From: a virus
Length of the DNA: 64,000 bases
IMG/VR virus record: IMGVR_UViG_3300023181_000271
Strand: one strand, 5' to 3'
Shown: in pieces, positions 6,255-64,000 of the stretch
How the letters are laid out: each line of letters begins with the position of its first letter
How positions within the stretch are numbered: the stretch's first letter is position 1
Notes under the pieces: model-generated
What the model was told of the DNA's origin: nothing
Seen by the model: only the letters and a program-made list of their open reading frames with translations
Database searches by the model: none
Made by a program: the position numbers and the translations under genes

Positions 6255-6259
6255 CTGTG

Positions 6260-6288
6260 TGGAGCCGAAGGGGTTCGAACCTTTGTCT
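6260..6288. repeat. attL: displaced copy of ssrA 3'-terminal core (tggagccgaaggggttcgaacc + tttgtct)
   Basis: 22-bp exact and 29-bp near-exact direct repeat with 63875-63903; corresponds to T-arm and acceptor 3' strand of tmRNA. Confidence 0.8.
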
Positions 6289-22310: not shown

Positions 22311-22751
22311 TTAAATTGACGAGTAAAACTCTATTCTAAAATTGATGTAGTGCATGTTGTTCACATCATCCATCACCGTGTCTTGTTGGTATTTAAAGCA
22401 GTATTGTCCAGCTTCATCCCATATCTCTCCATCTTCATCTGCCCCATCAGCAAAGGCTTGATTACCTAGTTTAGCCAGCACTAATAACCTGGCTGTATCA
22501 GGTTGTGATCGATCTGGATTGTTATCTGGTAGTTTCAGATTTGGCACATAAATATTTACATTGAGCACTGCCTCGTCCACATCACCTTTAACCAGTGGTA
22601 AACCATTTATAACTACATCTTCAAGTTCTGAGTTAAGAGGTTTTTGATACTTGCACAGCTTACCATTGGGTTTTTTTAAACTATTTACCAATACACTGTT
22701 CTCTATGTGCTGAAATAGAACATTTACCACCTCAATTGATGTAAATCCCAT
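22311..22751 (-). CDS. Tail completion / tail terminator-like protein
   Basis: Position in head-tail joining block; size 146 aa. Confidence 0.4.
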   Translation of the reverse strand: MGFTSIEVVNVLFQHIENSVLVNSLKKPNGKLCKYQKPLNSELEDVVINGLPLVKGDVDEAVLNVNIYVPNLKLPDNNPDRSQPDTARLLVLAKLGNQAFADGADEDGEIWDEAGQYCFKYQQDTVMDDVNNMHYINFRIEFYSSI

Positions 22752-27841: not shown

Positions 27842-27874
27842 CAAAAAAAGCTAACGGGAACCACTCCGTTAGCT
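27842..27874 (-). terminator. Intrinsic terminator after portal gene
   Basis: Perfect 9-bp stem AGCTAACGG/CCGTTAGCT with 8-nt loop followed by T7 in minus sense. Confidence 0.6.
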
Positions 27875-27962
27875 AACCAAACCTAAACCAAACTATTACT
27901 ATGAAAATTATCTATTTCAAATATACAAACATTATGTTCTAATTGTTCCAAATTAGAACATA

Positions 27963-31739: not shown

Positions 31740-31831
31740 TGTCTTTTACCTATTAACCCCGGGACTTATGCCCGGGGTGTCTTCACTGTTTTGCCGGCCA
31801 TTAAATCCGGTATTTATATTAATCAAGTATG

Positions 31832-31902
31832 CATGAGTGAAAGGATTCGAACCTATATCAATAGTTTTGGAGACCACTATTCTACCTTTGAACTACACTC
31901 AC
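31832..31902 (-). tRNA. Phage-encoded tRNA-Trp (anticodon CCA)
   Basis: Manual fold: acceptor GUGAGUG/CACUCAU, D-stem GUUC/GAAU, anticodon stem with loop CUCCAAA, T-arm AUAGG-TTCGAAT-CCUUU. Confidence 0.65.
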
Positions 31903-32163: not shown

Positions 32164-32177
32164 ATAATATATATTTG

Positions 32178-32251
32178 TTGACCTGGAAGGACTCGAACCC
32201 TCAATCTTCTGAACCAAAATCAGACGTGCAAACCAATTACACCGCAGATCA
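32178..32251 (-). tRNA. Phage-encoded tRNA-Gln (anticodon UUG) with U1-A72 pair
   Basis: Manual fold: acceptor UGAUCUG/CAGGUCA (U1:A72 as in bacterial tRNA-Gln), anticodon stem UCUGA/UCAGA with loop UUUUGGU, T-arm GAGGG-TTCGAGT-CCUUC. Confidence 0.65.
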
Positions 32252-32257
32252 ATTTTA

Positions 32258-32464
32258 CTACGCTTTTTCGTGAAACTTCAATACCTCATCAACTGCATTC
32301 TGCAGGTCTGTAACTACATCTTCTGAATGTCCACCACCGATTGTGATGATCACCCTTGGATGAGTTGTCATGATATCCACTGATACCTCGCCATTTGCGA
32401 AGGCCTGACTTGTTTTTTCCCGGTCCAGTGGGAACTTAGTTTTTAGCTTTGCCATATTATTCAA
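32258..32464 (-). CDS. Hypothetical protein
   Basis: Co-oriented ORF in early/late transition region. Confidence 0.3.
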   Translation of the reverse strand: MNNMAKLKTKFPLDREKTSQAFANGEVSVDIMTTHPRVIITIGGGHSEDVVTDLQNAVDEVLKFHEKA

Positions 32465-32984
32465 AAAATTTGTGTTCGGTTTTGATCAGCTCGTAAAGCC
32501 GGTAAGTCTCAGACTTAAATTCTTTATAAGCACGGAAAGCAACGATGACACATGATATCCTTTTCTTTAAAATATCACGGGAACAATTCAGTTCCGCAGC
32601 CATTCTGCTTAAGATGAATCTTTTCAATCTGATATTGCTGATGCTTAAAACCTTCTCAGGCTGATAAAGTAGCATAATCACGGAAACCAGAAGATCTCTA
32701 TTCTCTGATATCGATCTGTTTCCTCCTTTATTAATCCATACTTCGCTATTAATCCCCTTAATGGCTTTGAAAGAACGTACAACTAAAGGAATTAAAGACA
32801 CATCTTCCAGGGATGCCGGTAACTCTTCATCCAGCCTTTTACGGATACATAAATCCACTTCCGGATACTCTCTGCGTAGGATATTTGTGATTAAAGCTGA
32901 ACTGTATTCCCTCATATGAAGTAAAGATAAAAACAAATGTTCTAATTGTTCTAATTCAGAACATAAATAAGTGAATTTTTTCAC
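32457..32984 (-). CDS. Hypothetical protein (preceded by ATGTTCT motif)
   Basis: 175-aa ORF; conserved operator-like motif 20-45 bp upstream. Confidence 0.35.
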   Translation of the reverse strand: MKKFTYLCSELEQLEHLFLSLLHMREYSSALITNILRREYPEVDLCIRKRLDEELPASLEDVSLIPLVVRSFKAIKGINSEVWINKGGNRSISENRDLLVSVIMLLYQPEKVLSISNIRLKRFILSRMAAELNCSRDILKKRISCVIVAFRAYKEFKSETYRLYELIKTEHKFFE

Positions 32985-33060
32985 TTATCATATGGAAAGA
33001 ATTAAAAAGCCCCCTACAAATCAATGCAGAGGGCAGGGTACTATGAGGTGTGTGGTGTTT

Positions 33061-40542: not shown

Positions 40543-40722
40543 TATCGAAGTTTTTAAATAGAAAAAGGCTTATCCCCAGTTTGCGCTTCGACTCGCTCCC
40601 CAGAGATAAACCTCTTTTAAATGTCTTTAAACAGTCCTAAGTCGAAGTATGAACTGATTGATAAACAAATGTAATAAAAAATGTTCTATATGTTCTATTT
40701 TAGAACATTTTATTTAAAAAAA

Positions 40723-45157: not shown

Positions 45158-45961
45158 TTAAAGTTTTAATCTTTCATACATATCGAGCGCGGCCTGCACT
45201 CCTTTTTTTGGTTTTTCCTCAGTTGATTTTTTGACAGCCACTTCAATTGATCGGTTGATCCATCCTGAGGCAGCAGATTTCCAATTGGCCATTTTATTTT
45301 TTCCAACCATCCAGTTTTTTGAGCAATAAAAATCAATGAACTTTTTAGCTTGGAAGTTGCAGTCGTGATCAGACCATTTTGTTTCATTTACTTTCTCTGA
45401 AAAGAAGTTGGAAACATCAATGTGTGTGGGAGGGGAAAATGTAGTTTTCCCACTTATAGTTTTCTCTGTTTTAGGTTTAGGTGTTTTGTTGTTTTGTTGT
45501 TTAGGAATATTCCCTGTGCTTTCCTCATGCATTCCCTGTGCTGTACCAAGTGCGTTCCCTGTGCTTTCTGCATGCTGTACCAAATTTTGGTATAGCACAT
45601 TTATCTGAAAAAAGGCAGATTGATACTGATTTGGTCCTTTTTCATAAATAACATACCCTCCATCAACAAGCTCTTTAATGGCTGAATAGTAAGTGTTCTT
45701 TGTTATGCCAGTCATGCTTAAGACCTGACCAAATGCAACTCTAAATCGATCTTTCCACCCACACCTATTATTGATCTGCAGTAGCGACAAATACACTATA
45801 GAGGACGATGGTTTTAAGTCCATGTCCAACTCACACTTCTGCCAAAAAGCATTAATCTGCTTTATATAATCCATACTGCCTATTGAAGTAATACTATCCC
45901 TGCGCACCATTAAGGTTGTCAGCTTGTTTTCTGGTACCGGATGGGTACAAAGAAGGTGCAC
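45158..45961 (-). CDS. Putative replication initiator / DnaD-like replisome organiser with internal iterons
   Basis: N-terminal winged-helix-like region, conserved C-terminal W-rich region; three 12-bp direct repeats ATTCCCTGTGCT inside the coding sequence (lambda O-like arrangement). Confidence 0.45.
   Translation of the reverse strand: MHLLCTHPVPENKLTTLMVRRDSITSIGSMDYIKQINAFWQKCELDMDLKPSSSIVYLSLLQINNRCGWKDRFRVAFGQVLSMTGITKNTYYSAIKELVDGGYVIYEKGPNQYQSAFFQINVLYQNLVQHAESTGNALGTAQGMHEESTGNIPKQQNNKTPKPKTEKTISGKTTFSPPTHIDVSNFFSEKVNETKWSDHDCNFQAKKFIDFYCSKNWMVGKNKMANWKSAASGWINRSIEVAVKKSTEEKPKKGVQAALDMYERLKL
45509..45566. repeat. Iteron-like direct repeats (3 x (A/G)TTCCCTGTGCT, ~22-24 bp spacing) = candidate origin of replication
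   Basis: Copies at 45509-45520, 45531-45542, 45555-45566, preceded by (GTTTT)n simple repeat 45481-45505. Confidence 0.5.
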
Positions 45962-46059
45962 AGGGATAGTATTGAATGTCTTACGGCTGACAACCGGGAC
46001 CGCAATTTAATTAATTATTTCGGAATTGTTCTACTTGTTCTAATTTAGAACATTATGTA

Positions 46060-50989: not shown

Positions 50990-52681
50990 TTATTTTGAAA
51001 AAAGGTTCATCACACTATCGACGAAGGTTTCTTCGGTTAAATCTTCACTGCCATTTACCGTATTGGCAATTTCACGTTTGTCGTTGATGAGCTGGTAGTT
51101 CCATTCATCAATGGTGTTTTTACCAAGGAAGTAAGTACACATGACATTGGAATGCTGACCGCCCCGATACAACCTATCCTCTGCCTGATCCATGATTGCT
51201 GCGTGCCAACCAAATTCAATAAAGCAAATCTGTGTAGCGACATTCTGCAGCCCATCTACACCGGTACCACCGGCTTTCAGGTTAAGGACAATTACATCGA
51301 TCTTCGGATCCTTTTGGAAGCGTTCAACTGCTGCCTGTTTAGCATTGCCATCATCAGCTCCAGTAACGCGTACCGACCTGGGAAACTCCTGCTGAACTTT
51401 AGCTACAACTTCTTTTAAGCTTGCGAACACTACAACCTTTTGCCCTTGCTCAATCAGATCCTGAATAAATGAAAAGGCATCTTTAAGCTTTCCCCGGGCA
51501 CTGATGTTCTTCAGAATACCAATCCTCACCATCACCTCACCTTTCATTGATTTTTTAACGGACTCTTCAGACTGCTTTTTGATGTTGATCATGTAACTTT
51601 CCAAGTCAGCCTGAGCATGCTGGTATTCTCTTCTATGCGTAGCATCCAGTTCGCAGCTTATTACTTGTCTGGATTTATCCGGTAGAAACTTTTTAATTTC
51701 AGGATCTGTTTTATTCCGACGAAGGAAGCAAATCAGGTTCAGCCTGTAGTTCAACTCTTTTAAATTGCTGGCCTCTTTAGGACCAGAGCAATAGCGTTTA
51801 ACAAAAGCAGCGTATCCCCCAAAATCCTTTAACCTGTCCATGATACCAAGCTGGGAAACTAAATCGATCGGCTTATTCACGACAACTGTACCGGTAAGTA
51901 GCAGTATAGTTTCTTTCCCGATACAAAGGCCTTTGGTTAATTTGGTAGAGATTGCCTTGATATTTTTTACCTTATGGCTTTCATCTACGATCACCGCCTT
52001 AAAGAAATCAAGGTATTTCTGTTTAAAATGGATATGCTCCAGGCGCAACTGTTTACCTTTTGGTACCTCATCAATATGATCAACGAAATACGTTTTCAGC
52101 GATTCATAGTTGACAATAAAGAATTGCGACATACCAACCCGGAAGAACTCCATGAACGTTCCCTTGATGCTTTTCTGAAATACAATCCCTTTACGATGGA
52201 TATTAGCGTTGATCTCTTTAACCCAGTTTAGTTTTACTGCATCCGGACAGATGATTAAGCAAGGATAGGAAGCCTCACCCATCTGGCTTAGACCTTCGAT
52301 TGCAATAATCGCTTCAGTTGTTTTACCTAAGCCCATATCATCACCGATGATCACTCTACGGTGTTTCAGGATATAAGCAACGGCACCTGGCTGCCATGGT
52401 CTCATTTCCCTTTTTGTTGGGATGCTGATTTCAAGTTCAGGCAAAGCTGGTATTACAAATACCTGTTCAGGTTCAACAGCTGCACTATTGTGAAAATCAA
52501 GATCGTATTTATCAGCGAATGATTTTACTGCGATGTGATGGGTTACCGGCACGGTCCAGAACTTATCAGTACGATCAAATTTTCTTTCTGGAAGAAGTTT
52601 AACGGCTTCTGCTATTTTAGGTCTGAAAGCAAATTCAATCTTGTAAACCTTTCCTACTTGCATTATGGTTCCTACGCTCAT
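50990..52681 (-). CDS. SNF2/RAD54-family helicase
   Basis: Motif I DDMGLGKT, motif II DESHKVKN, C-terminal helicase domain; 563 aa. Confidence 0.85.
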   Translation of the reverse strand: MSVGTIMQVGKVYKIEFAFRPKIAEAVKLLPERKFDRTDKFWTVPVTHHIAVKSFADKYDLDFHNSAAVEPEQVFVIPALPELEISIPTKREMRPWQPGAVAYILKHRRVIIGDDMGLGKTTEAIIAIEGLSQMGEASYPCLIICPDAVKLNWVKEINANIHRKGIVFQKSIKGTFMEFFRVGMSQFFIVNYESLKTYFVDHIDEVPKGKQLRLEHIHFKQKYLDFFKAVIVDESHKVKNIKAISTKLTKGLCIGKETILLLTGTVVVNKPIDLVSQLGIMDRLKDFGGYAAFVKRYCSGPKEASNLKELNYRLNLICFLRRNKTDPEIKKFLPDKSRQVISCELDATHRREYQHAQADLESYMINIKKQSEESVKKSMKGEVMVRIGILKNISARGKLKDAFSFIQDLIEQGQKVVVFASLKEVVAKVQQEFPRSVRVTGADDGNAKQAAVERFQKDPKIDVIVLNLKAGGTGVDGLQNVATQICFIEFGWHAAIMDQAEDRLYRGGQHSNVMCTYFLGKNTIDEWNYQLINDKREIANTVNGSEDLTEETFVDSVMNLFSK

Positions 52682-53549: not shown

Positions 53550-53902
53550 GGTTGGTACTCCTTTCTGATTTGCTCATGATCATCGTCGGTTAAGAAATCA
53601 ATAATCACTGGTGTGCTGTAGTAACATTTTTTAGTTTCTGGCAGATTCTTTAAAAAGCGAAGAGCAGTGGCTGCAGTATGGATCGCTTCGGTTCTTATTT
53701 CATCAAAGGTGCCGGTACCTTCATCCAGCAGGTTACCCGCCCTAACCAGTTCACCTGATTCTTCTGCGACAAAAGCAATTTGCTTAACATGGCAGTCTGG
53801 CCATACTGGATGCTTCTTTTCAGCGCGTTCCACTTCCATCATGATTTCCATGATCAGTGTCGCTGTCTCTATATTTTCTGTAGTTATTGAAAGTGTAGTC
53901 AT
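53546..53902 (-). CDS. MazG-like nucleotide pyrophosphohydrolase candidate
   Basis: EKKHPVWPD ... VAEESGELVRA ... EAIHTAATALRF resembles MazG/dNTP-PPase EExGE motif. Confidence 0.45.
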   Translation of the reverse strand: MTTLSITTENIETATLIMEIMMEVERAEKKHPVWPDCHVKQIAFVAEESGELVRAGNLLDEGTGTFDEIRTEAIHTAATALRFLKNLPETKKCYYSTPVIIDFLTDDDHEQIRKEYQP

Positions 53903-53965
53903 TGGTTAAAAGTTAAAACATGTTCTGTTTGTTCTAAAACAGAACATGTTAGTTAAAAAAAAGAG

Positions 53966-54622
53966 TTATTCTAAGTCTGATGCAGCATCATCAAAGTCCA
54001 TGGCGTACTGCGAGTCTGGTGCATATTTACCATTGTAATAAGCAAGTACTTCCTGAGCACAGTGTTTAACGACACGATACAACTCATCACCGAATTCGTA
54101 GGCATCCTGATCACCGAAAAACTCCGCTGGCTGTGATAATGGCAACATTCCTTTACCACGTGTGTATCTGTGACCTGTTAGTGTTACTCCGGTTTCAGCA
54201 TCATTGATAGCAAAGCCGGTTACCTTAAATCGGTTTAATGGATTGTCACGATCTTCTCCTTCATAGTTTTCAAAGGCAGATGGCTCAATAAAGTTCCCAT
54301 GCATATCATAGGCTTCTTTTTGCATGCAGGCAATTATCAAGTGGCATCTTAATAAATCAAAGGCGTAATAAAGATCAGGGTGAGGTAAGAACGGGATAGG
54401 CTCCTTACCAGTGTTTTCAAACTCCCTTAATTCAACCACACCATTTGCATTGGCAAAATCCCTGGTCACAACTTTAATGTACTCAACGTTAACCCCGCCT
54501 TTACCTAAACTGGCTTTAGTGATCTTAATCTTTGTGCCGGCCTTTAGTTCATGCGACTCTTCAGCTGCAGCTTTCTTTTCTTCCAGTTCGTCCTGGGTAA
54601 TTGATTTTGTTGATACTCTCAT
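53966..54622 (-). CDS. Hypothetical protein
   Basis: 218-aa ORF. Confidence 0.35.
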   Translation of the reverse strand: MRVSTKSITQDELEEKKAAAEESHELKAGTKIKITKASLGKGGVNVEYIKVVTRDFANANGVVELREFENTGKEPIPFLPHPDLYYAFDLLRCHLIIACMQKEAYDMHGNFIEPSAFENYEGEDRDNPLNRFKVTGFAINDAETGVTLTGHRYTRGKGMLPLSQPAEFFGDQDAYEFGDELYRVVKHCAQEVLAYYNGKYAPDSQYAMDFDDAASDLE

Positions 54623-54634
54623 ATATTGATTTAA

Positions 54635-55156
54635 TTAATTGTCGAAAAAAAACACGATTCTGATATCCATATCACCCACATTACATTGCAGTAGCTTCAT
54701 GTTCTCTACCAGACTGATCAGGTTTCCGTTATTATCAAACCACTCTCTGTAAACGTAATCTGGTGCATTAGTTGATTGGGACCATGAGGTAGGTAATTCA
54801 CCGGCATCAAGCTTCTCTGCCTGATCTTTTGATATCATGCCGCTGTACTTCACTTTGGCATCCGGCAAGTAATCCAGTATTTCCTGTAAGGTTAAATAGC
54901 TGTGACTATGGCCATAGGAACCTTTATCCTCAACTGCATCAAGATATTGTTTACTTGCATCAGCAGGGATTCCTTTTGCTTGATTTATTGGAATGTTATT
55001 ATCGTAATTTCTAACGTCAGCCAGTATTGCAAATAGTGTGTAGCACCGATCAACTCCTAAATCACTATTCAAATTCACCCATGAACCGTTTATTTTCCGT
55101 TCTGTGAACAGATGTATATCGCAGCCCATATTAAAATTCTGGTTCTTTAGGTTCAA
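54635..55156 (-). CDS. Hypothetical protein
   Basis: 173-aa ORF. Confidence 0.35.
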   Translation of the reverse strand: MNLKNQNFNMGCDIHLFTERKINGSWVNLNSDLGVDRCYTLFAILADVRNYDNNIPINQAKGIPADASKQYLDAVEDKGSYGHSHSYLTLQEILDYLPDAKVKYSGMISKDQAEKLDAGELPTSWSQSTNAPDYVYREWFDNNGNLISLVENMKLLQCNVGDMDIRIVFFFDN

Positions 55157-55541
55157 TATATTCTACAGTGGCACCCTCCGACATTTGAAAGATTACACCC
55201 GCTTCTGATTTTGCAGGAAAGTCTTTAATGTCGCCGGTGATGACCAGTTCAGGTATCCAGTTGACTAAAGTCTTTTCTTGCTTCTCACTTGGAAAGTGCT
55301 TAACGACTTTTGAGCTGATGAACTTTCCAATACTTTCAGCGATCGGAACAAACGATAATGTATCGTAGTCCACTTCTGAATACATGTAGCCAGAACCATT
55401 TTTAAACTGGACATAGATCTTATGCTCCAGCATACTTGTGCCGACAAAGGCAACATTACTGGAAGGTTTTTCGATGATCTCAAATCCATCGAGGATAGGA
55501 TCAACAGCGTACGTGCCGCTGGAAAGAGTGATTGTTTTCAT
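55131..55541 (-). CDS. Hypothetical protein
   Basis: 136-aa ORF. Confidence 0.35.
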   Translation of the reverse strand: MKTITLSSGTYAVDPILDGFEIIEKPSSNVAFVGTSMLEHKIYVQFKNGSGYMYSEVDYDTLSFVPIAESIGKFISSKVVKHFPSEKQEKTLVNWIPELVITGDIKDFPAKSEAGVIFQMSEGATVEYIEPKEPEF

Positions 55542-60277: not shown

Positions 60278-60541
60278 TTAATTAACTAATGACAATGCTT
60301 TTGCTGCATATTCAGACAACTCTGCCTTACATCTACAGCCTGTTTTTCTTCTGATATTGACAGAGGTATTTACCACCGTTCGGTAGCTGATATGTAGCAC
60401 CTCCGCTATAAGTTTGTCCGATAATGAAATCAGCGCCAAAACTTCTTTTTCTCTCCTGCTCAACCCTGGGTCGATGAGAATATCATACGGCTTTTCTACT
60501 AGGCCGATAATTAATGTTGATTTATTTTGTACAGTTATCAT
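60278..60541 (-). CDS. LuxR/GerE-type HTH regulator (first gene of leftward early operon; Cro-like role candidate)
   Basis: LSRREKEVLALISLSDKLIAEVLHISYRTVVNTSVNIRRK = LuxR C-terminal HTH; divergent from repressor. Confidence 0.6.
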   Translation of the reverse strand: MITVQNKSTLIIGLVEKPYDILIDPGLSRREKEVLALISLSDKLIAEVLHISYRTVVNTSVNIRRKTGCRCKAELSEYAAKALSLVN

Positions 60542-60714
60542 TTTGGTAGGTTGTTACTATATGTGAGTTCTGAATTAATAAGTACCTTTGTTATTGTTAG
60601 GTAACACAAATATACCTGTTTTAGATATATATCCAAATATATATTATAACCAAAACAGATATATTTTATAAATACCTGATTTACAGTATTATAATTTTTA
60701 ATTATATAACCATT
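60542..60714. promoter_or_regulatory. Divergent promoter/operator region of immunity switch
   Basis: AT-rich 173-bp region with repeated TAGGT(A/T)..AC half-sites and a 17-bp imperfect inverted repeat CTGTTTTAGATATATAT / ATATATTATAACCAAAACAG. Confidence 0.5.
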
Positions 60715-61479
60715 TTGGATATTAATAATTACATAGTTAAAGCATTCAAGGAGAGTAACATCAAGCAAAAAGACGTTATTAAGGATTTAGGTATTCCTCA
60801 ATCATATGCTTCTGCCTTAATGAATGGCAAGAGATCTATAGGTAAGGAAATGGCTGAGAAATTAAGTTCATTATATGGTTTTGATAAACTAGCATTATTG
60901 ACAAGTGAAATATCTACGGTGCCAGTAATCGAAGCTAAACCGATACGGTTAGCCGACCCCGAAGGATTAGAAGCGACAGGAGACAGATTTTATAGATTGC
61001 CAGATGACACAATTATTATGCAGACGCCCGTTATACCCTATAAAGCTTACGCCAGCTATTTAAGAGGACATAGTGATCCTGAATTTTACGAAGGGCTGGA
61101 AACATTACCGGTACCAGTTGATAAAAATCACAAAGGTGCATATTTGATATGGGAGATTGGCGGAGAAAGCATGGTTAATATAACCTCATTTGAAATGGCC
61201 AGAAAAAGCATTTGGCCGGGGCAAAAAGTTATAGGCAGGGAATTAAGAAGAGAGCACTGGAAATATAAACTACATATAAACACAACTGATTGCTGGATCA
61301 TAGTTCACCGTGAGAGAGGTATTGTGTTGAAGGAAATAACTGAACATAACATCGATACTGGAGAAATACTACTTCATTCATGGAATCCAGATAAGAAAGA
61401 ACATCCAGATTATGCTGTATTCCTAGACGAAGTTGATCAAATCTTCAATGTAGTGGACCCTTACGGGAAAATAAGATAA
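60715..61479 (+). CDS. cI-like prophage repressor (XRE HTH + S24 LexA-like peptidase domain), apparent TTG start
   Basis: N-terminal HTH IKQKDVIKDLGIPQSYASALMNGKRS; C-terminal GGESM Ser nucleophile motif and downstream Lys of S24 family. Confidence 0.8.
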   Translation: MDINNYIVKAFKESNIKQKDVIKDLGIPQSYASALMNGKRSIGKEMAEKLSSLYGFDKLALLTSEISTVPVIEAKPIRLADPEGLEATGDRFYRLPDDTIIMQTPVIPYKAYASYLRGHSDPEFYEGLETLPVPVDKNHKGAYLIWEIGGESMVNITSFEMARKSIWPGQKVIGRELRREHWKYKLHINTTDCWIIVHRERGIVLKEITEHNIDTGEILLHSWNPDKKEHPDYAVFLDEVDQIFNVVDPYGKIR

Positions 61480-62052: not shown

Positions 62053-62234
62053 TGAAAGAAGAATCAGAATCTGACAGACTGCAGCGATTGAGTGATGAAG
62101 AATTTGCCCGTACCGGTGTATTCAATGCAAATTTCAAGATGGATATCACGATCACGGAAAATGATATGATCAAAGACCTGGTAAACAAAACAGCAGGTAA
62201 AAATATAAAGATTGATAAACCAAACAATAACTAA
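62052..62234 (+). CDS. Hypothetical small acidic protein
   Basis: 60-aa ORF. Confidence 0.25.
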   Translation: MKEESESDRLQRLSDEEFARTGVFNANFKMDITITENDMIKDLVNKTAGKNIKIDKPNNN

Positions 62235-62628
62235 ACTAATGGCAACGATAGATAAACAAATTAAAATGCAAATGGCTGCTCGGTTTAAACAATTTCGAGA
62301 GGAAGAAGGACTCAGTCAGGATGCTATTGCTGAAAAGACCAGTACACCCAGGAGTAATATATCTAAATATGATAACGGATCTTATAACCTACCAATTGAC
62401 TTCATTTTAGATTTGAAGAAATATTATAGGTTGAGCATTGATTGGCTGTTTACAGGCGAAGGATCACATAAAAGTGAAGTGGTTAAAAACAACACTTTGG
62501 TAACAGATATAAAGACGTTAAATGATAATAATATATATCTGCATGCTGAACTTAAATCATTGAAAAAGGAATTTTATAAGATGCATGCTGATTTTTACGA
62601 ACTTAAAAATACATTTAAGGCAGGTTAA
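62212..62628 (+). CDS. XRE-family HTH regulator (WLFTGEG type)
   Basis: LSQDAIAEKTSTPRSNISKYDNG ... IDWLFTGEG; probable start MATIDKQ (62239). Confidence 0.6.
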   Translation: MINQTITKLMATIDKQIKMQMAARFKQFREEEGLSQDAIAEKTSTPRSNISKYDNGSYNLPIDFILDLKKYYRLSIDWLFTGEGSHKSEVVKNNTLVTDIKTLNDNNIYLHAELKSLKKEFYKMHADFYELKNTFKAG

Positions 62629-62646
62629 AATCTCCTGCCTTTTTTA
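62617..62646. terminator. Bidirectional terminator between HTH gene and integrase
   Basis: Hairpin AAGGCAGG-ttaaaatctc-CTGCCTT followed by T6. Confidence 0.55.
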
Positions 62647-63863
62647 AACTCGGTTTCTTGAGTATTAATTCCCAGATCACGCATGTAGATCATAGTTGTA
62701 GCCAGATCCCGGTGCCGGAAGAGTTTCATAATTTTATGCAGATCTTCTCCATCCTCCCCTAAATGCACAGCCCTGGTATGCTTGTAACAATATATACCAT
62801 CACGATCTCCTAGATTTAAAGCTGTCTTGTAGGGTTTAAATAACCGCCTGAAGTAATCATCCCCTACTTTAGTTTCACCACCTAAGAACGCTCCATCCCG
62901 GTTCCTTGCAAAAACATAATCGTTTGAAGGCATCTGATCAATTTTCAATTCAAGTAGTAATTCCCTAAAATCTGGATAGATAGGTATGTATTCGGTTTTC
63001 CTATTCTTAGCGGTTCCACTGAGAACACGTAATGTGTTTTGCTTAAAGTTAATATCACCAGCTTTTACCCTGTTACCTTCCGATACATTTCGCAGGCCGG
63101 CATAATAGATGAAGCTGCAAAATGTATACAGCAATGTATCACCATTTTCCTGCATCATTTCTTTGAGTTGTTTAAACTCCCAATCATTTAATGCCTTGTT
63201 CCCAGGTCGGTCTACCCTTGCCCGGCTTAAGGTAAGGGTGGGTACTTTATCAATATAATCATCATAGTTATTGTAAAAATAATTGAAGAAGGTAGTGATA
63301 TCTGTCAGATAGTGATTATAGGTTTTTCCGGACCAGTTACGTTGCAGCTTATAGTAGGTCATGAAATCCAACACATGCGCTTTTTTTATATCTCGCAGCA
63401 ATACCTGATCATATTCATTCTTGATCAGCCAATTCTTAAAAAGGTTTAGTTCGAGTGAATACTTATGCATAGTGGTTTTCTTGACTGTGATTTCAGCCAG
63501 GTACTTATCTATGCAAATTGAAATTGTGCGCTGTTTGTTGAGTAAATTTTGAAGTGGCCGATATTCCTCAAAGGGTGACCATCCTTGTTTTAAAAGATCA
63601 GTAAGCTCATTTTTAAAACCCTTACCGTATTCTCTTCTTTCAGTTTTGGTTTTGAATTGATTGAATCCAAAATTATATCTAAATCTTTCGTATTTCCCAG
63701 TTAATGGATGTTGATATTTAATCCAAACGAACCAGTCTTTAGTAAGATCACCATTCTTTGGTTCATAAATAAAAGGGCCTTCCCACTTCGTTTTCAAATT
63801 CTCAGGTTTGTCAGTTTGGTCTGTTAATTGGTCAGCCGCAATATTAATGCGACTGACAATCAA
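62625..63863 (-). CDS. Tyrosine-type site-specific integrase (TTG start)
   Basis: C-terminal catalytic region with HTRAVHL ... FRHRDLATTMIYM (HxxR ... Y); adjacent to attR/ssrA. Confidence 0.9.
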   Translation of the reverse strand: MIVSRINIAADQLTDQTDKPENLKTKWEGPFIYEPKNGDLTKDWFVWIKYQHPLTGKYERFRYNFGFNQFKTKTERREYGKGFKNELTDLLKQGWSPFEEYRPLQNLLNKQRTISICIDKYLAEITVKKTTMHKYSLELNLFKNWLIKNEYDQVLLRDIKKAHVLDFMTYYKLQRNWSGKTYNHYLTDITTFFNYFYNNYDDYIDKVPTLTLSRARVDRPGNKALNDWEFKQLKEMMQENGDTLLYTFCSFIYYAGLRNVSEGNRVKAGDINFKQNTLRVLSGTAKNRKTEYIPIYPDFRELLLELKIDQMPSNDYVFARNRDGAFLGGETKVGDDYFRRLFKPYKTALNLGDRDGIYCYKHTRAVHLGEDGEDLHKIMKLFRHRDLATTMIYMRDLGINTQETEFKKGRRF

Positions 63864-63874
63864 CGTTTTAAGAG

Positions 63875-63903
63875 TGGAGCCGAAGGGGTTCGAACCCTTG
63901 TCC
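63875..63903. repeat. attR: ssrA 3'-terminal core reconstituted at prophage junction
   Basis: Direct repeat of 6260-6288. Confidence 0.8.
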
Positions 63904-64000
63904 AGTTGTGTGGCAAATTATGCCTTCTACATGCTTATTTTCCACTTTGTTTTCGGGATCAGACGGGCCGGAAACCTACCTTGCCTTTCTCCTTAGGTAC
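63875..64000 (-). ncRNA. ssrA: tmRNA (ssrA), 3' ~125 nt; gene continues beyond window
   Basis: Minus-sense ...UAAGCAUGUAGAAGGCAUAAUUUGCCACACAACUGGACAAGGGUUCGAACCCCUUCGGCUCCA: tRNA-like T-arm/acceptor, CGGCUCCA terminus and the conserved AAGCAUGUAG block as in E. coli tmRNA. Confidence 0.7.

What the first reader, a model, noticed from the sequence alone, without database searches (positions are those of the whole stretch)
27934..27961. Recurring phage-specific operator-like motif ATGTTCT-N4-TGTTCTAA-N2-3-AGAACAT (copy 1 of 5)
An about 28-bp element made of two direct TGTTCT half-sites plus an inverted AGAACA half-site occurs five times in the prophage and nowhere in the flanking host DNA. The copies are at 27934-27961, 32937-32964, 40681-40708, 46026-46053 and 53919-53948. 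Each lies in an intergenic gap 15-90 bp upstream of a minus-strand gene start: head morphogenesis, the 175-aa gene, the 69-aa gene, the replication initiator and the MazG-like gene. This fits the binding site of a phage-encoded regulator (candidates: the XRE, LuxR-type or HTH proteins found here) or an unusual promoter class shared by early and late operons. It does not match the Bacteroidota sigma-A consensus TTTG/TAnnTTTG or a Cheo-type LexA box.
Basis: seen in the sequence. Interest (0 to 1): 0.75.

Follow-up and report, generated by a model that had tools for sequence, protein, structure and literature searches.

The report
Phage-specific promoter boxes, DnaA-like regulator
The repeated 28-bp motif is real: it sits just upstream of host-type promoter boxes at the head of each operon of a prophage. 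Every related phage has its own version, and the likeliest reader is a small phage protein that folds like the DNA-binding domain of DnaA.

Summary
In gene orientation the motif reads ATGTTCT-N5-AGAACA-N3-AGAACAT. It occurs six times, not five, all on the gene strand and all inside a 57.6-kb prophage integrated at the tmRNA gene. About 0.14 matches are expected by chance. The sixth copy lies inside a gene.

The motif therefore covers about -50 to -24 of sigma-A-type promoters, in place of the -33 element.

Eleven related Sphingobacteriaceae phages carry a motif at the same syntenic positions. Each has its own sequence but a similar inverted-plus-direct layout. In total I mapped 63 sites in 12 phages; 24 have a perfect -7 box, against a background of 0.8%. 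The intragenic copy is written into codons, and the amino acids change to fit each phage's motif.

Binding and the direction of regulation (activation preferred) are inferred, not shown.

The parts
53920..53947 (-). Motif copy 1 (ATGTTCTGTTTTAGAACAAACAGAACAT). It lies between the 218-aa gene and the MazG-like gene. The palindrome extends to 14 bp per arm (53917-53950).
53908..53915 (-). -7-box-like TAACTTTT, 4 nt after copy 1 and 5 nt before the ATG at 53902. A leaderless mRNA is inferred.
46026..46053 (-). Motif copy 2, upstream of the replication-initiator gene (45158..45961). It is followed by a conserved TAATTAAT / AAATTGCGGTCCCGGTTGTCAGCCG leader.
40681..40708 (-). Motif copy 3, after the 221-aa gene.
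40666..40673 (-). Perfect -7 box TACATTTG, 7 nt after copy 3. It would drive a conserved structured RNA or leader of about 110 nt that ends in a terminator.
32937..32964 (-). Motif copy 4, directly upstream of the 152-aa gene. An intrinsic terminator precedes it at 33009-33034.
32922..32929 (-). -7 box TATCTTTA, 7 nt after copy 4 and 6 nt before the ATG at 32915.
   Evidence: the same layout is seen in 9 relatives
32457..32915 (-). 152-aa protein with a DnaA-domain-IV-like DNA-binding fold. It is the candidate protein that binds the motif.
27934..27961 (-). Motif copy 5, starting 2 nt after the portal stop codon. This is the given finding. The outer palindrome is 11 bp per arm.
27918..27925 (-). 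Perfect -7 box TATATTTG, 8 nt after copy 5.
27849..27874 (-). Conserved hairpin plus U7 in the leader, between the copy-5 promoter and the head-morphogenesis gene.
22696..22723 (-). Motif copy 6, inside the 5' end of ORF 22311..22751 and written into codons N-V-L-F-Q-H-I-E-N-S. No -7 box follows it.
   Evidence: translated by hand from the sequences
60542..60714 (.). Divergent switch region between the cI-like XRE gene (60715..61479 +) and the first early gene (GerE-like, 60278..60541 -). It has its own repeats and no copy of the motif.

Best explanation
The 28-bp element is the phage's own promoter-upstream recognition module.

In gene orientation it parses as three 9-bp boxes with consensus ttAGAACAt: one inverted, a 1-nt gap, then two head-to-tail. 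It ends 4-8 nt before a host-type -7 box (TAnnTTTG). It therefore occupies about -50 to -24 and takes the place of the -33 element.

It heads five transcription units of a one-directional temperate siphovirus: the MazG/helicase block, the replication block, a block that begins with a small RNA, the block running from the 152-aa gene through terminase to portal, and the head/tail block. A sixth copy lies inside a tail-region gene.

Most likely it is bound by the phage's 152-aa DnaA-domain-IV-like protein, one monomer per box. This protein would recruit or stabilise host sigma-A RNA polymerase at promoters that lack a -33 element. That would be activation in the manner of pho boxes or T4 MotA boxes.

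Because the protein's own promoter carries the element, the circuit would be a positive-feedback switch. It would stay off in the lysogen and be turned on by read-through from the cI-controlled early operon.

Shown: the element, its statistics, its orientation, its fixed position relative to -7 boxes, its syntenic conservation with phage-specific sequence, and the fold of the 152-aa protein.

Inferred: that this protein is the binder, and that binding activates transcription.
For: Statistics and orientation. All 63 mapped sites in 12 phages lie on the gene strand.

Promoter link:
- 24 of 63 sites have a perfect TAnnTTTG within 30 nt downstream, against 0.8% at random positions.
- 43 of 63 have at most one mismatch, against 15%. 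Most boxes start 1-8 nt after the 28-nt core.
- The -7 box ends 4-7 nt before the ATG of the 152-aa gene in WIN and nine relatives.

Synteny with phage-specific sequence.

Intragenic copy: it co-varies with each phage's motif at the cost of amino-acid changes. Examples are WIN NVLFQHIENS, C NMLFEYTKNS, L027 NVLFSTIANG and H NMLFQHIEHS (sequences).

The 152-aa protein:
- It is present in all 12 phages and is the least conserved gene of its neighbourhood in 6 of the 9 phage pairs compared: 38-55% identity where its best-conserved neighbours reach 80-96%.
- The variation is concentrated in the second helix of a helix-turn-helix.
- The AlphaFold2 model has pLDDT 95.7 and pTM 0.87.
- Foldseek ranks the same structures first, with probability 0.98-0.99.
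- Many small phage proteins annotated 'DnaA C-terminal' share the fold, several from Bacteroidota phages.
- hhalign places the DnaA-C signature in register, though at low probability.

Boxes: the 18 WIN boxes give the consensus ttAGAACAt with a 9-bp period. By hand comparison, the boxes of phages A (TTATGCATA) and E (TTATACAAA) match TTATCCACA at 7 of 9 positions.

Natural variant: in the close relative L022 both the motif (GTGCT/AGCAC arms) and the recognition-helix region differ, while the flanking DNA is 83-85% identical.

Exclusions: the switch region lacks the motif and GerE is not conserved.
Against: - There is no binding or transcription data.
- Mantel tests relating motif similarity to protein similarity are not significant. 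Whole 152-aa protein: rho 0.15, p 0.26. Recognition helix alone: rho 0.26, p 0.11.
- Phages A and L025 share much of a motif, yet their 152-aa proteins are only 51% identical.
- The intragenic copies have no -7 box, which an activator-only model does not explain.
- Phage E sites rarely have a canonical -7 box.
- In several relatives the middle box resembles a -35/-33 element (TTGACAT). Those promoters might not need an activator.
- The WIN box matches the DnaA box at only 3 of 9 positions, and no Pfam Bac_DnaA_C hit was obtained.
- Other universal proteins of unknown function (218 aa, 407 aa, 176 aa) were not modelled.
Confidence: 0.42

Rival explanations
1. The element is a silencing operator. 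The 152-aa protein, or a lysogeny-module HTH such as the 138-aa XRE protein (62212..62628), binds it, occludes the -33 region of otherwise constitutive promoters and blocks read-through. This would keep the prophage quiet, as stoperators do in mycobacteriophage L5, CIR sites in phiC31 and SPBRE sites in SPbeta.
For: - The sites are multi-copy, co-oriented, close to upstream stop codons (1-17 nt at four sites), and one is intragenic without a -7 box.
- In some relatives the middle box looks like TTGACA or TTTG at the right distance from the -7 box. Those promoters could be active on their own.
- An autoregulated own promoter is typical of repressors.
Against: - There is no copy at the cI/early switch in WIN or in the four relatives where the switch was seen (B, C, F, H). 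Stoperator-type systems reuse the early-promoter operator.
- WIN promoters have no -33 TTTG.
- The 152-aa gene has no terminator-like site before the tRNAs and the terminase and portal genes that follow on the same strand. Expressing it in a lysogen would therefore express packaging genes.
- The 138-aa HTH has a homologue in only one relative.
Confidence: 0.2
2. The element works as a nucleic-acid hairpin. It would be a weak intrinsic terminator, an RNA processing or stability signal at the 3' end of each upstream operon, or an N-nut/boxB-like antitermination site on the transcript.
For: - The 63 sites fold at a mean of -5.25 kcal/mol, against -1.9 for shuffled versions.
- In WIN, copies 5 and 1 have perfect 11-bp and 14-bp arms in which the variable positions are complementary (AATT/AATT, GTTT/AAAC).
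- Copy 1 is flagged as terminator-like.
- The sites follow stop codons closely, and the tails are T-rich at some sites.
Against: - Within a phage the arm sequence itself is conserved, not just the pairing. Loops vary.
- Sense and antisense strands fold equally well (37 versus 24 sites, p = 0.23), so there is no G-U signature of an RNA.
- Stems are AT-rich and weak at many sites, with energies between 0 and -3 kcal/mol.
- The third box is not needed for a hairpin.
- A fixed distance to the -7 box and a copy inside a coding region are not expected of terminators.
Confidence: 0.1
3. No separate DNA-binding factor is involved. The 28 bp would be read directly by RNA polymerase holoenzyme, either host sigma-A or polymerase modified by a phage sigma-region-4-like or appropriator protein such as the GerE-type 87-aa early protein. 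The copies would be kept alike within a genome by recombination.
For: - The element spans the region normally contacted by sigma region 4 and the alpha C-terminal domains.
- In relatives D, H and F the middle box is TTGACA-like, 16-20 nt upstream of the -7 box.
- The GerE fold is related to sigma region 4, and its gene is the first early gene.
Against: - Host sigma-A cannot explain sequences that differ between phages of one host family.
- GerE has no homologue in the relatives with early-region data (A-H) that keep the architecture.
- Dyad symmetry and an intragenic copy without a -7 box are not promoter requirements.
Confidence: 0.12
4. The element is a non-transcriptional DNA site, such as a parS-like partition or condensation site, a replication site or a packaging site. 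The WIN arms TGTTCT/AGAACA recall the parS sequence TGTTNCACGTGAAACA.
For: - There is a superficial resemblance of the outer bases to parS (from my own knowledge).
- DnaA-type domains also act at replication origins.
- One copy lies inside a gene.
Against: - The spacing (N5 rather than N4) and the centre differ from parS.
- The relatives' versions (TATGC...GCATA, TTATAC...GTATAA) do not resemble parS.
- The strong, position-specific link to -7 boxes and to start codons is not expected.
Confidence: 0.04

Closest known systems
T4 middle promoters (MotA box at -30 plus host -10) and PhoB pho-box promoters
   Same: A host-type -10/-7 element is kept. The -35/-33 element is replaced by the binding site of a dedicated activator, which ends about 10 bp upstream of the -10. 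Pho boxes also use direct repeats.
   Different: Here there are three 9-bp boxes including an inverted one, and the sequence is specific to each phage. The candidate binder has a DnaA-domain-IV fold, not a MotA double-wing or a winged helix. No AsiA-like partner was identified, and activation is not shown.
Stoperators of mycobacteriophage L5, CIR sites of phiC31 and SPBRE of SPbeta
   Same: Many copies of one phage-specific site are scattered through a genome. They lie in short gaps near stop codons and occasionally inside genes. In L5 they share one orientation relative to transcription.
   Different: Those sites are bound by the immunity repressor and also occur at the early promoter. Here the switch region lacks the motif, and the sites sit at a fixed distance upstream of -7 boxes.
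Late-gene activators encoded just upstream of terS (RinA, ArpU, LtrC types)
   Same: A small phage-specific DNA-binding protein is encoded immediately upstream of the packaging genes.
   Different: No sequence relationship was found (no Pfam or PHROG hit). The fold is DnaA-IV-like. The target site lies upstream of the regulator's own gene and also at early operons, not only at the late operon.
DnaA domain IV and DnaA boxes (TTATNCACA), including DnaA acting as a transcription factor
   Different: The protein is stand-alone and lacks the AAA+ domain. The WIN box ttAGAACAt matches the DnaA box at 3 of 9 positions. The sites are at promoters throughout a phage genome, not at an origin.
Lambda Q and its binding element at pR'
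   Same: A phage-specific DNA element sits inside a late promoter. Two of the six WIN promoters are followed by conserved terminator hairpins in their leaders.
   Different: The Q binding element lies between -35 and -10 at a single promoter. Here the element is upstream, present at 6-10 promoters, and most of those have no leader terminator.

Membership tests
Bacteroidota sigma-A promoter (-33 TTTG / -7 TAnnTTTG) | -7 box TAnnTTTG about 7 nt upstream of the transcript start | tested here: met
   In WIN there are two perfect boxes and two with one mismatch, 4-8 nt after the motif. Across the family, 24 of 63 sites have a perfect box against a 0.8% background.
Bacteroidota sigma-A promoter (-33 TTTG / -7 TAnnTTTG) | -33 TTTG about 18-20 nt upstream of the -7 box | tested here: not met
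   In WIN the position is occupied by AGAACA boxes. TTTG/TTGACA occurs there at a subset of sites in relatives D, H and F.
Stoperator / CIR-type repressor sites | Many co-oriented copies of one phage-specific site | tested here: met
   There are six copies in WIN and 2-10 in the sampled parts of each relative, all on the gene strand.
Stoperator / CIR-type repressor sites | The same site serves as operator at the immunity-controlled early promoter | tested here: not met
   There is no copy in 60542-60714, which carries different repeats. No site was found near the switch in relatives B, C, F and H.
Stoperator / CIR-type repressor sites | Bound by the immunity repressor | not testable with these tools
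   Needs EMSA or ChIP.
DnaA C-terminal domain (domain IV) proteins - the 152-aa candidate binder | Domain IV fold (helix-turn-helix plus basic loop) | tested here: met
DnaA C-terminal domain (domain IV) proteins - the 152-aa candidate binder | Sequence membership (Pfam Bac_DnaA_C) | tested here: not met
   No Pfam hit for the protein or for 42 relatives. The PDB profile search found nothing significant. hhalign puts the signature in register, but at a probability of only 5.9%.
DnaA box | 9-mer TTATNCACA | tested here: not met
   The WIN box ttAGAACAt matches at 3 of 9 positions. Boxes of relatives A and E match at 7 of 9 (hand comparison of the consensus).
Bacteroidota non-canonical LexA (SOS) boxes | GGA-N5-TCC or CTAA-N5-TTAG palindrome (PMC8565304) | tested here: not met
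   The motif contains CTAA-N1-TTAG at most. The spacing is wrong (one search compared).
Intrinsic terminator | G+C-rich stem followed by a U tract | tested here: not met
   Only copy 1 passes the terminator scan. The stems are AT-rich, folding at -3.6 to -11 kcal/mol for the 28-nt cores, and there is no consistent U tract.
Known RNA families (Rfam 15) | Match at the gathering score | tested here: not met
   The window contains only two tRNAs and a tmRNA fragment.
parS | 16-bp palindrome TGTTNCACGTGAAACA | tested here: not met
   WIN has TGTTCT-N5-AGAACA with a variable centre. The relatives' motifs are unrelated.
RinA/ArpU-type late activators | Homology to the family | tested here: not met
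   No Pfam or PHROG hit. Only the gene position upstream of terS is shared.

The most novel reading that the evidence does not exclude
Stand-alone DnaA-domain-IV proteins, common but uncharacterised in Bacteroidota phages, could be a new class of phage master transcription factors. Each phage would carry a private 'promoter code' of three 9-bp boxes that stand in for the -33 element at every operon. The boxes would be read by a rapidly diversifying recognition helix and wired as a self-activating switch downstream of cI. This would be the Bacteroidota counterpart of sigma appropriation, or of phage-encoded sigma factors.
Probability: 0.3. Interest if true: 0.72.

Novelty: new variant of a known kind. 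Interest (0 to 1): 0.6.

Why it matters
Transcription control in temperate phages of Bacteroidota is almost unstudied. This locus offers a compact, testable regulon.

- **Defined parts.** There is one 28-bp element at fixed promoter geometry, 6-10 copies per genome, and a natural series of at least 12 phages with diverged versions.
- **A single candidate reader.** The candidate's fold (DnaA domain IV) has not been described as a phage-wide promoter factor in the papers I could search.
- **What follows if confirmed.** It would assign a function to the many small 'DnaA C-terminal' proteins annotated in phage genomes. It would also provide orthogonal promoter/regulator pairs for Bacteroidota genetics.
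- **Specificity.** It would show how specificity co-evolves between a DnaA-type helix-turn-helix and its 9-mer.

If it turns out to be a plain repressor operator, the finding is ordinary. It would still be useful for annotating these prophages.

Tried and rejected
- **Close annotated phages.** A megablast of 22 kb against INPHARED phages found nothing.
- **Exact-pattern scans.** IMG/VR returned only single hits, none of them on a WIN-like phage contig. GTDB genomes returned 54 single hits at chance level.
- **GerE/LuxR as binder.** Only three homologues exist, on contigs too short to reach a motif site. The protein is absent from the relatives. Rejected as the general factor.
- **cI-like repressor as binder.** The switch lacks the motif. 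The N-terminal domains differ in every phage, so covariation could not be used to exclude it.
- **Core proteins of 218 aa and 136 aa.** The 218-aa protein has an acidic C-terminal tail and looks SSB-like. The 136-aa protein looks KTSC-like. Neither has a DNA-binding signature. These are judgements by eye only.
- **Mantel tests.** Motif similarity was compared with protein similarity for 17 core proteins and for the helix-turn-helix segment. None was significant.
- **RNA-hairpin test.** Sense and antisense folding energies show no asymmetry.
- **Structure prediction.** The single-sequence AlphaFold model was unusable (pLDDT 46). The afdb50 library was unavailable.
- **More distant relatives.** Alignment A4 was too divergent for a locus search. 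The distant homologue L120 showed no clear motif.
- **Other motif classes.** Bacteroidota LexA motifs do not match, and parS does not match.

Full report
**1. The observation.**

All five reported copies exist. On the + strand the element is TGTTCT-N3-TGTTCT-N5-AGAACA. In the orientation of the genes, which are all on the minus strand between about 6.2 and 60.5 kb, it reads aTGTTCT-N5-AGAACA-N3-AGAACAt.

A scan allowing three mismatches finds the five copies plus a sixth at 22697-22722, which has one mismatch. About 0.14 matches are expected from shuffles. The plain hexamer TGTTCT is not enriched (49 observed against 42.8 expected). The signal therefore lies in the arrangement, not the hexamer.

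All copies lie inside a prophage. It is bounded by a 23-bp direct repeat at 6259-6281 and 63874-63896. The right repeat is the 3' end of a tmRNA gene, next to a tyrosine integrase.

The exact pattern occurs only as 54 scattered single hits in 596 Gb of reference genomes. In IMG/VR it occurs only as unrelated single hits. This version of the motif is private to this phage lineage.

**2. Context in the window.**

The prophage has a classical divergent switch at 60542-60714. An XRE/cI-like gene lies on the + strand and a GerE/LuxR-type 87-aa gene is the first early gene on the minus strand. The switch has its own set of repeats (for example ATACCTGTTTTAGATATA) and no copy of the motif.

Everything else is transcribed leftwards. 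In order, these genes are:
- the recombination genes RecT and a PDDEXK exonuclease;
- an SNF2-type helicase and a replication initiator;
- many small ORFs and two tRNAs;
- terminase, an SPP1-type portal, a head-morphogenesis gene and the tail genes.

The motif copies sit at the boundaries of these blocks. At four sites they lie 1-17 nt after the stop codon of the upstream gene.

These boxes are TATATTTG (27918-27925), TACATTTG (40666-40673), TATCTTTA (32922-32929) and TAACTTTT (53908-53915), lying 4-8 nt after the 28-nt core. With the last base of the box at -7, the motif covers about -50 to -24. That is the place of the -33 element, and WIN has no TTTG there.

At two sites the box ends 5-6 nt before the ATG, at 53902 and 32915. 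This implies leaderless mRNAs. A good intrinsic terminator precedes the site at 32937 (33009-33034).

**3. Relatives.**

Portal and helicase homologues place the phage in a large group of Sphingobacteriaceae prophages, from Pedobacter, Sphingobacterium, Mucilaginibacter and Parapedobacter. I assembled about 40 kb from each of eight IMG/VR phages. I also used three metagenomic contigs and a short close relative, L022.

An unsupervised all-against-all comparison of 24-mers shows the same thing in 10 of the 12 sequences compared. The largest or most coherent repeat family is a co-oriented element of about 28 bp with a similar layout but a phage-specific sequence. Seeded profile scans then located the element in all 12:
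- E: TTATAC-AAATA-GTATAA-TTT-GTATAA, at least 10 copies
- D: AATGTTAATTTAACATATTGCGCAT
- H: TATGTTA...AACATATTGAGTAT
- F and G: TATGCTT...ACAT...GCATAAT
- A and L025: TATGCATAAA.GTAA...GCAT
- C: TATGCTCTTTTATTATATTAGGAATAAT
- L023: TTATGTGAAAT...ATTTTACATAA
- L027: ATTTGTGC...TTGCGAACAAAT

The sites are syntenic across phages. They lie:
- after the 218-aa gene, before the MazG-like gene;
- after the helicase;
- before the replication initiator;
- after the 221-aa gene;
- before the 152-aa gene;
- right after the portal stop codon;
- inside the 5' end of the homologue of ORF 22311..22751.

Of 63 mapped sites, 24 are followed within 30 nt by a perfect TAnnTTTG (0.8% at random positions). A further 19 have one mismatch, giving 43 in all (15% background). 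Most boxes start 1-8 nt after the core.

The intragenic copy is especially informative. It is written into codons for a conserved N-terminal peptide, and the peptide changes to fit each phage's motif: WIN NVLFQHIENS, H NMLFQHIEHS, C NMLFEYTKNS, L027 NVLFSTIANG (sequences, translated by hand). That copy is therefore selected as a site, although it lacks a -7 box.

**4. DNA site or RNA hairpin?**

The elements are clearly more self-complementary than shuffled versions (-5.25 against -1.9 kcal/mol). In WIN two copies have perfect arms of 11 and 14 bp in which even the variable positions are complementary.

Several points argue against an RNA hairpin:
- Within a phage it is the arm sequence, not merely the pairing, that is conserved.
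- The loops vary.
- The sense and antisense strands fold equally well (p = 0.23).
- The stems are weak at many sites.

I therefore read the symmetry as that of a protein-binding site on duplex DNA. A secondary role as a weak terminator at some sites is not excluded.

**5. Who reads it?**

*GerE.* It has only three homologues among 5.8 billion proteins. It is absent from the relatives with early-region data (A-H) that keep the architecture.

*cI.* The cI-type repressors differ in every phage. However, the switch regions lack the motif, which argues against a stoperator-like use of the immunity repressor.

*The 152-aa protein.* Among proteins present in all phages, one stands out: the 152-aa product of 32457..32915, the first gene behind the site at 32937.
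- In 6 of the 9 phage pairs compared it is the least conserved gene of its neighbourhood, at 38-55% identity where its best-conserved neighbours reach 80-96%.
- Its variation is concentrated in the second helix of a helix-turn-helix-like segment (LSRMAAELNCSRDILKKRIS).
- It has no Pfam, PHROG or PDB sequence match.
- It belongs to a tiny family of 46 representatives among 1.84 billion proteins.

*Fit to the motif.* From established knowledge of DnaA, domain IV binds asymmetric 9-mers as a monomer. The 28-bp element parses exactly that way: an inverted 9-mer, 1 nt, then two head-to-tail 9-mers. The 18 WIN boxes give the consensus ttAGAACAt. By hand comparison, the boxes of relatives A (TTATGCATA) and E (TTATACAAA) match the DnaA box TTATCCACA at 7 of 9 positions.

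*A natural variant.* In the close relative L022 the flanking DNA is 83-85% identical. The central part of the 152-aa gene is replaced there, giving the recognition helix TLGALKMSIST. The upstream motif has changed both arms in a compensatory way (GTGCT/AGCAC).

*Evidence against.* Mantel tests are positive but not significant (rho 0.26, p 0.11 for the recognition helix). A and L025 share much of a motif with only 51% identical proteins.

**6. Mechanism.**

The geometry is a set of direct repeats that end about 10 bp upstream of a host-type -10/-7 element and replace the -35/-33 element. This is the geometry of activator-dependent promoters such as pho boxes and T4 MotA boxes.

Internal promoters of a prophage must be silent in the lysogen. 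Dependence on an activator that drives its own promoter gives a stable off state. The on state would be triggered by read-through from the cI-controlled early operon.

A repressor made from the 32937 promoter would be co-expressed with terminase and portal, because I found no terminator in between. I therefore prefer activation.

The repressor or roadblock reading remains a serious rival, for two reasons. The intragenic copies lack a -7 box. Some relatives have TTGACA-like middle boxes.

Bacteroidota SOS boxes (GGA-N5-TCC and CTAA-N5-TTAG; PMC8565304), parS and Rfam families do not match.

**7. Verdict.**

The finding is real, statistically strong and biologically coherent. It is a phage-private promoter-upstream code, conserved in architecture across a family of Sphingobacteriaceae prophages.

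The assignment of the DnaA-domain-IV-like protein as its reader is the best-supported inference. It rests on fold, position, universality, hypervariability and box geometry, not on a direct test. In kind, this is a new variant of known phage regulator/site systems.

Noticed in passing
window 6259-6281 and 63874-63896; 63872-64000 (-): A 23-bp direct repeat, GTGGAGCCGAAGGGGTTCGAACC, bounds the prophage (about 57.6 kb). The right copy is the 3' end of a tmRNA gene, so the phage integrated into ssrA next to its integrase (62625..63863).
   Followed up: yes
window ~40545-40665 (-): The promoter at motif copy 3 is followed by a conserved, structured RNA of about 110 nt that ends in a terminator. 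Its long-range helix is CTTCGACT/AGTCGAAG in WIN, A and C. The sequence is different but still complementary in phages D and H. A loop, GTTTAAAGACATT, is conserved. There is no Rfam match. It may be a phage sRNA or a regulated leader.
   Followed up: partly
window 27849-27917 (-): Between the copy-5 promoter and the head-morphogenesis gene lies a conserved UUUGGUUUAGGUUUGG stretch. It is followed by a 9-bp hairpin with a conserved loop (AGUGGUUC) and a U7 run. The stem covaries in six relatives. In phages D and E the same promoter position is followed by sequence that reads like the 5' end of a tRNA (GCGGGGT...). This is either an sRNA or a leader that needs read-through.
   Followed up: partly
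window 32915-32929 and 53902-53915 (-); relatives: The -7 box ends 4-7 nt before the ATG of the 152-aa gene in every phage examined, and 5 nt before the MazG-like ATG in WIN. These mRNAs are probably leaderless.
   Followed up: partly
window 60542-60714: The immunity switch has its own repeat set, unrelated to the motif. Examples are AAATATACCTGTTTTAGATATA / TATAACCAAAACAGATATATTT and ATACCTGTTTTA / ATACCTGATTTA. A single box-like 9-mer, TCAGAACTC in gene orientation, lies at about 60566-60574.
   Followed up: partly
window 31831-31902 and 32177-32251 (-): Two phage tRNA genes (Trp-CCA and Gln-TTG) lie between the 152-aa gene and the small terminase gene.
   Followed up: no
relatives of window 50990..52681; phage F locus L093: Several homologues of the SNF2-type helicase are 910-942 aa long and carry LAGLIDADG/intein-type Pfam hits. 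This points to intein insertions in some relatives.
   Followed up: no
loci L121-L240 (metagenome scan): The exact pattern also hits an unrelated family of repeats, AATGTTCTTCGTGTTCTTnnnAAGAACATTG, in many contigs from a few JGI samples. By eye it resembles a heat-shock element. It saturated the scan.
   Followed up: no
window 53966..54622 (-) and 55131..55541 (-): Two universal early proteins have no family hit that names a function. The 218-aa protein ends in an acidic tail (DFDDAASDLE) and looks SSB-like. The 136-aa protein carries an SSNVAFV...YVQFKNGSGYMYSEVD signature and looks KTSC-like. Both are judgements by eye only.
   Followed up: no
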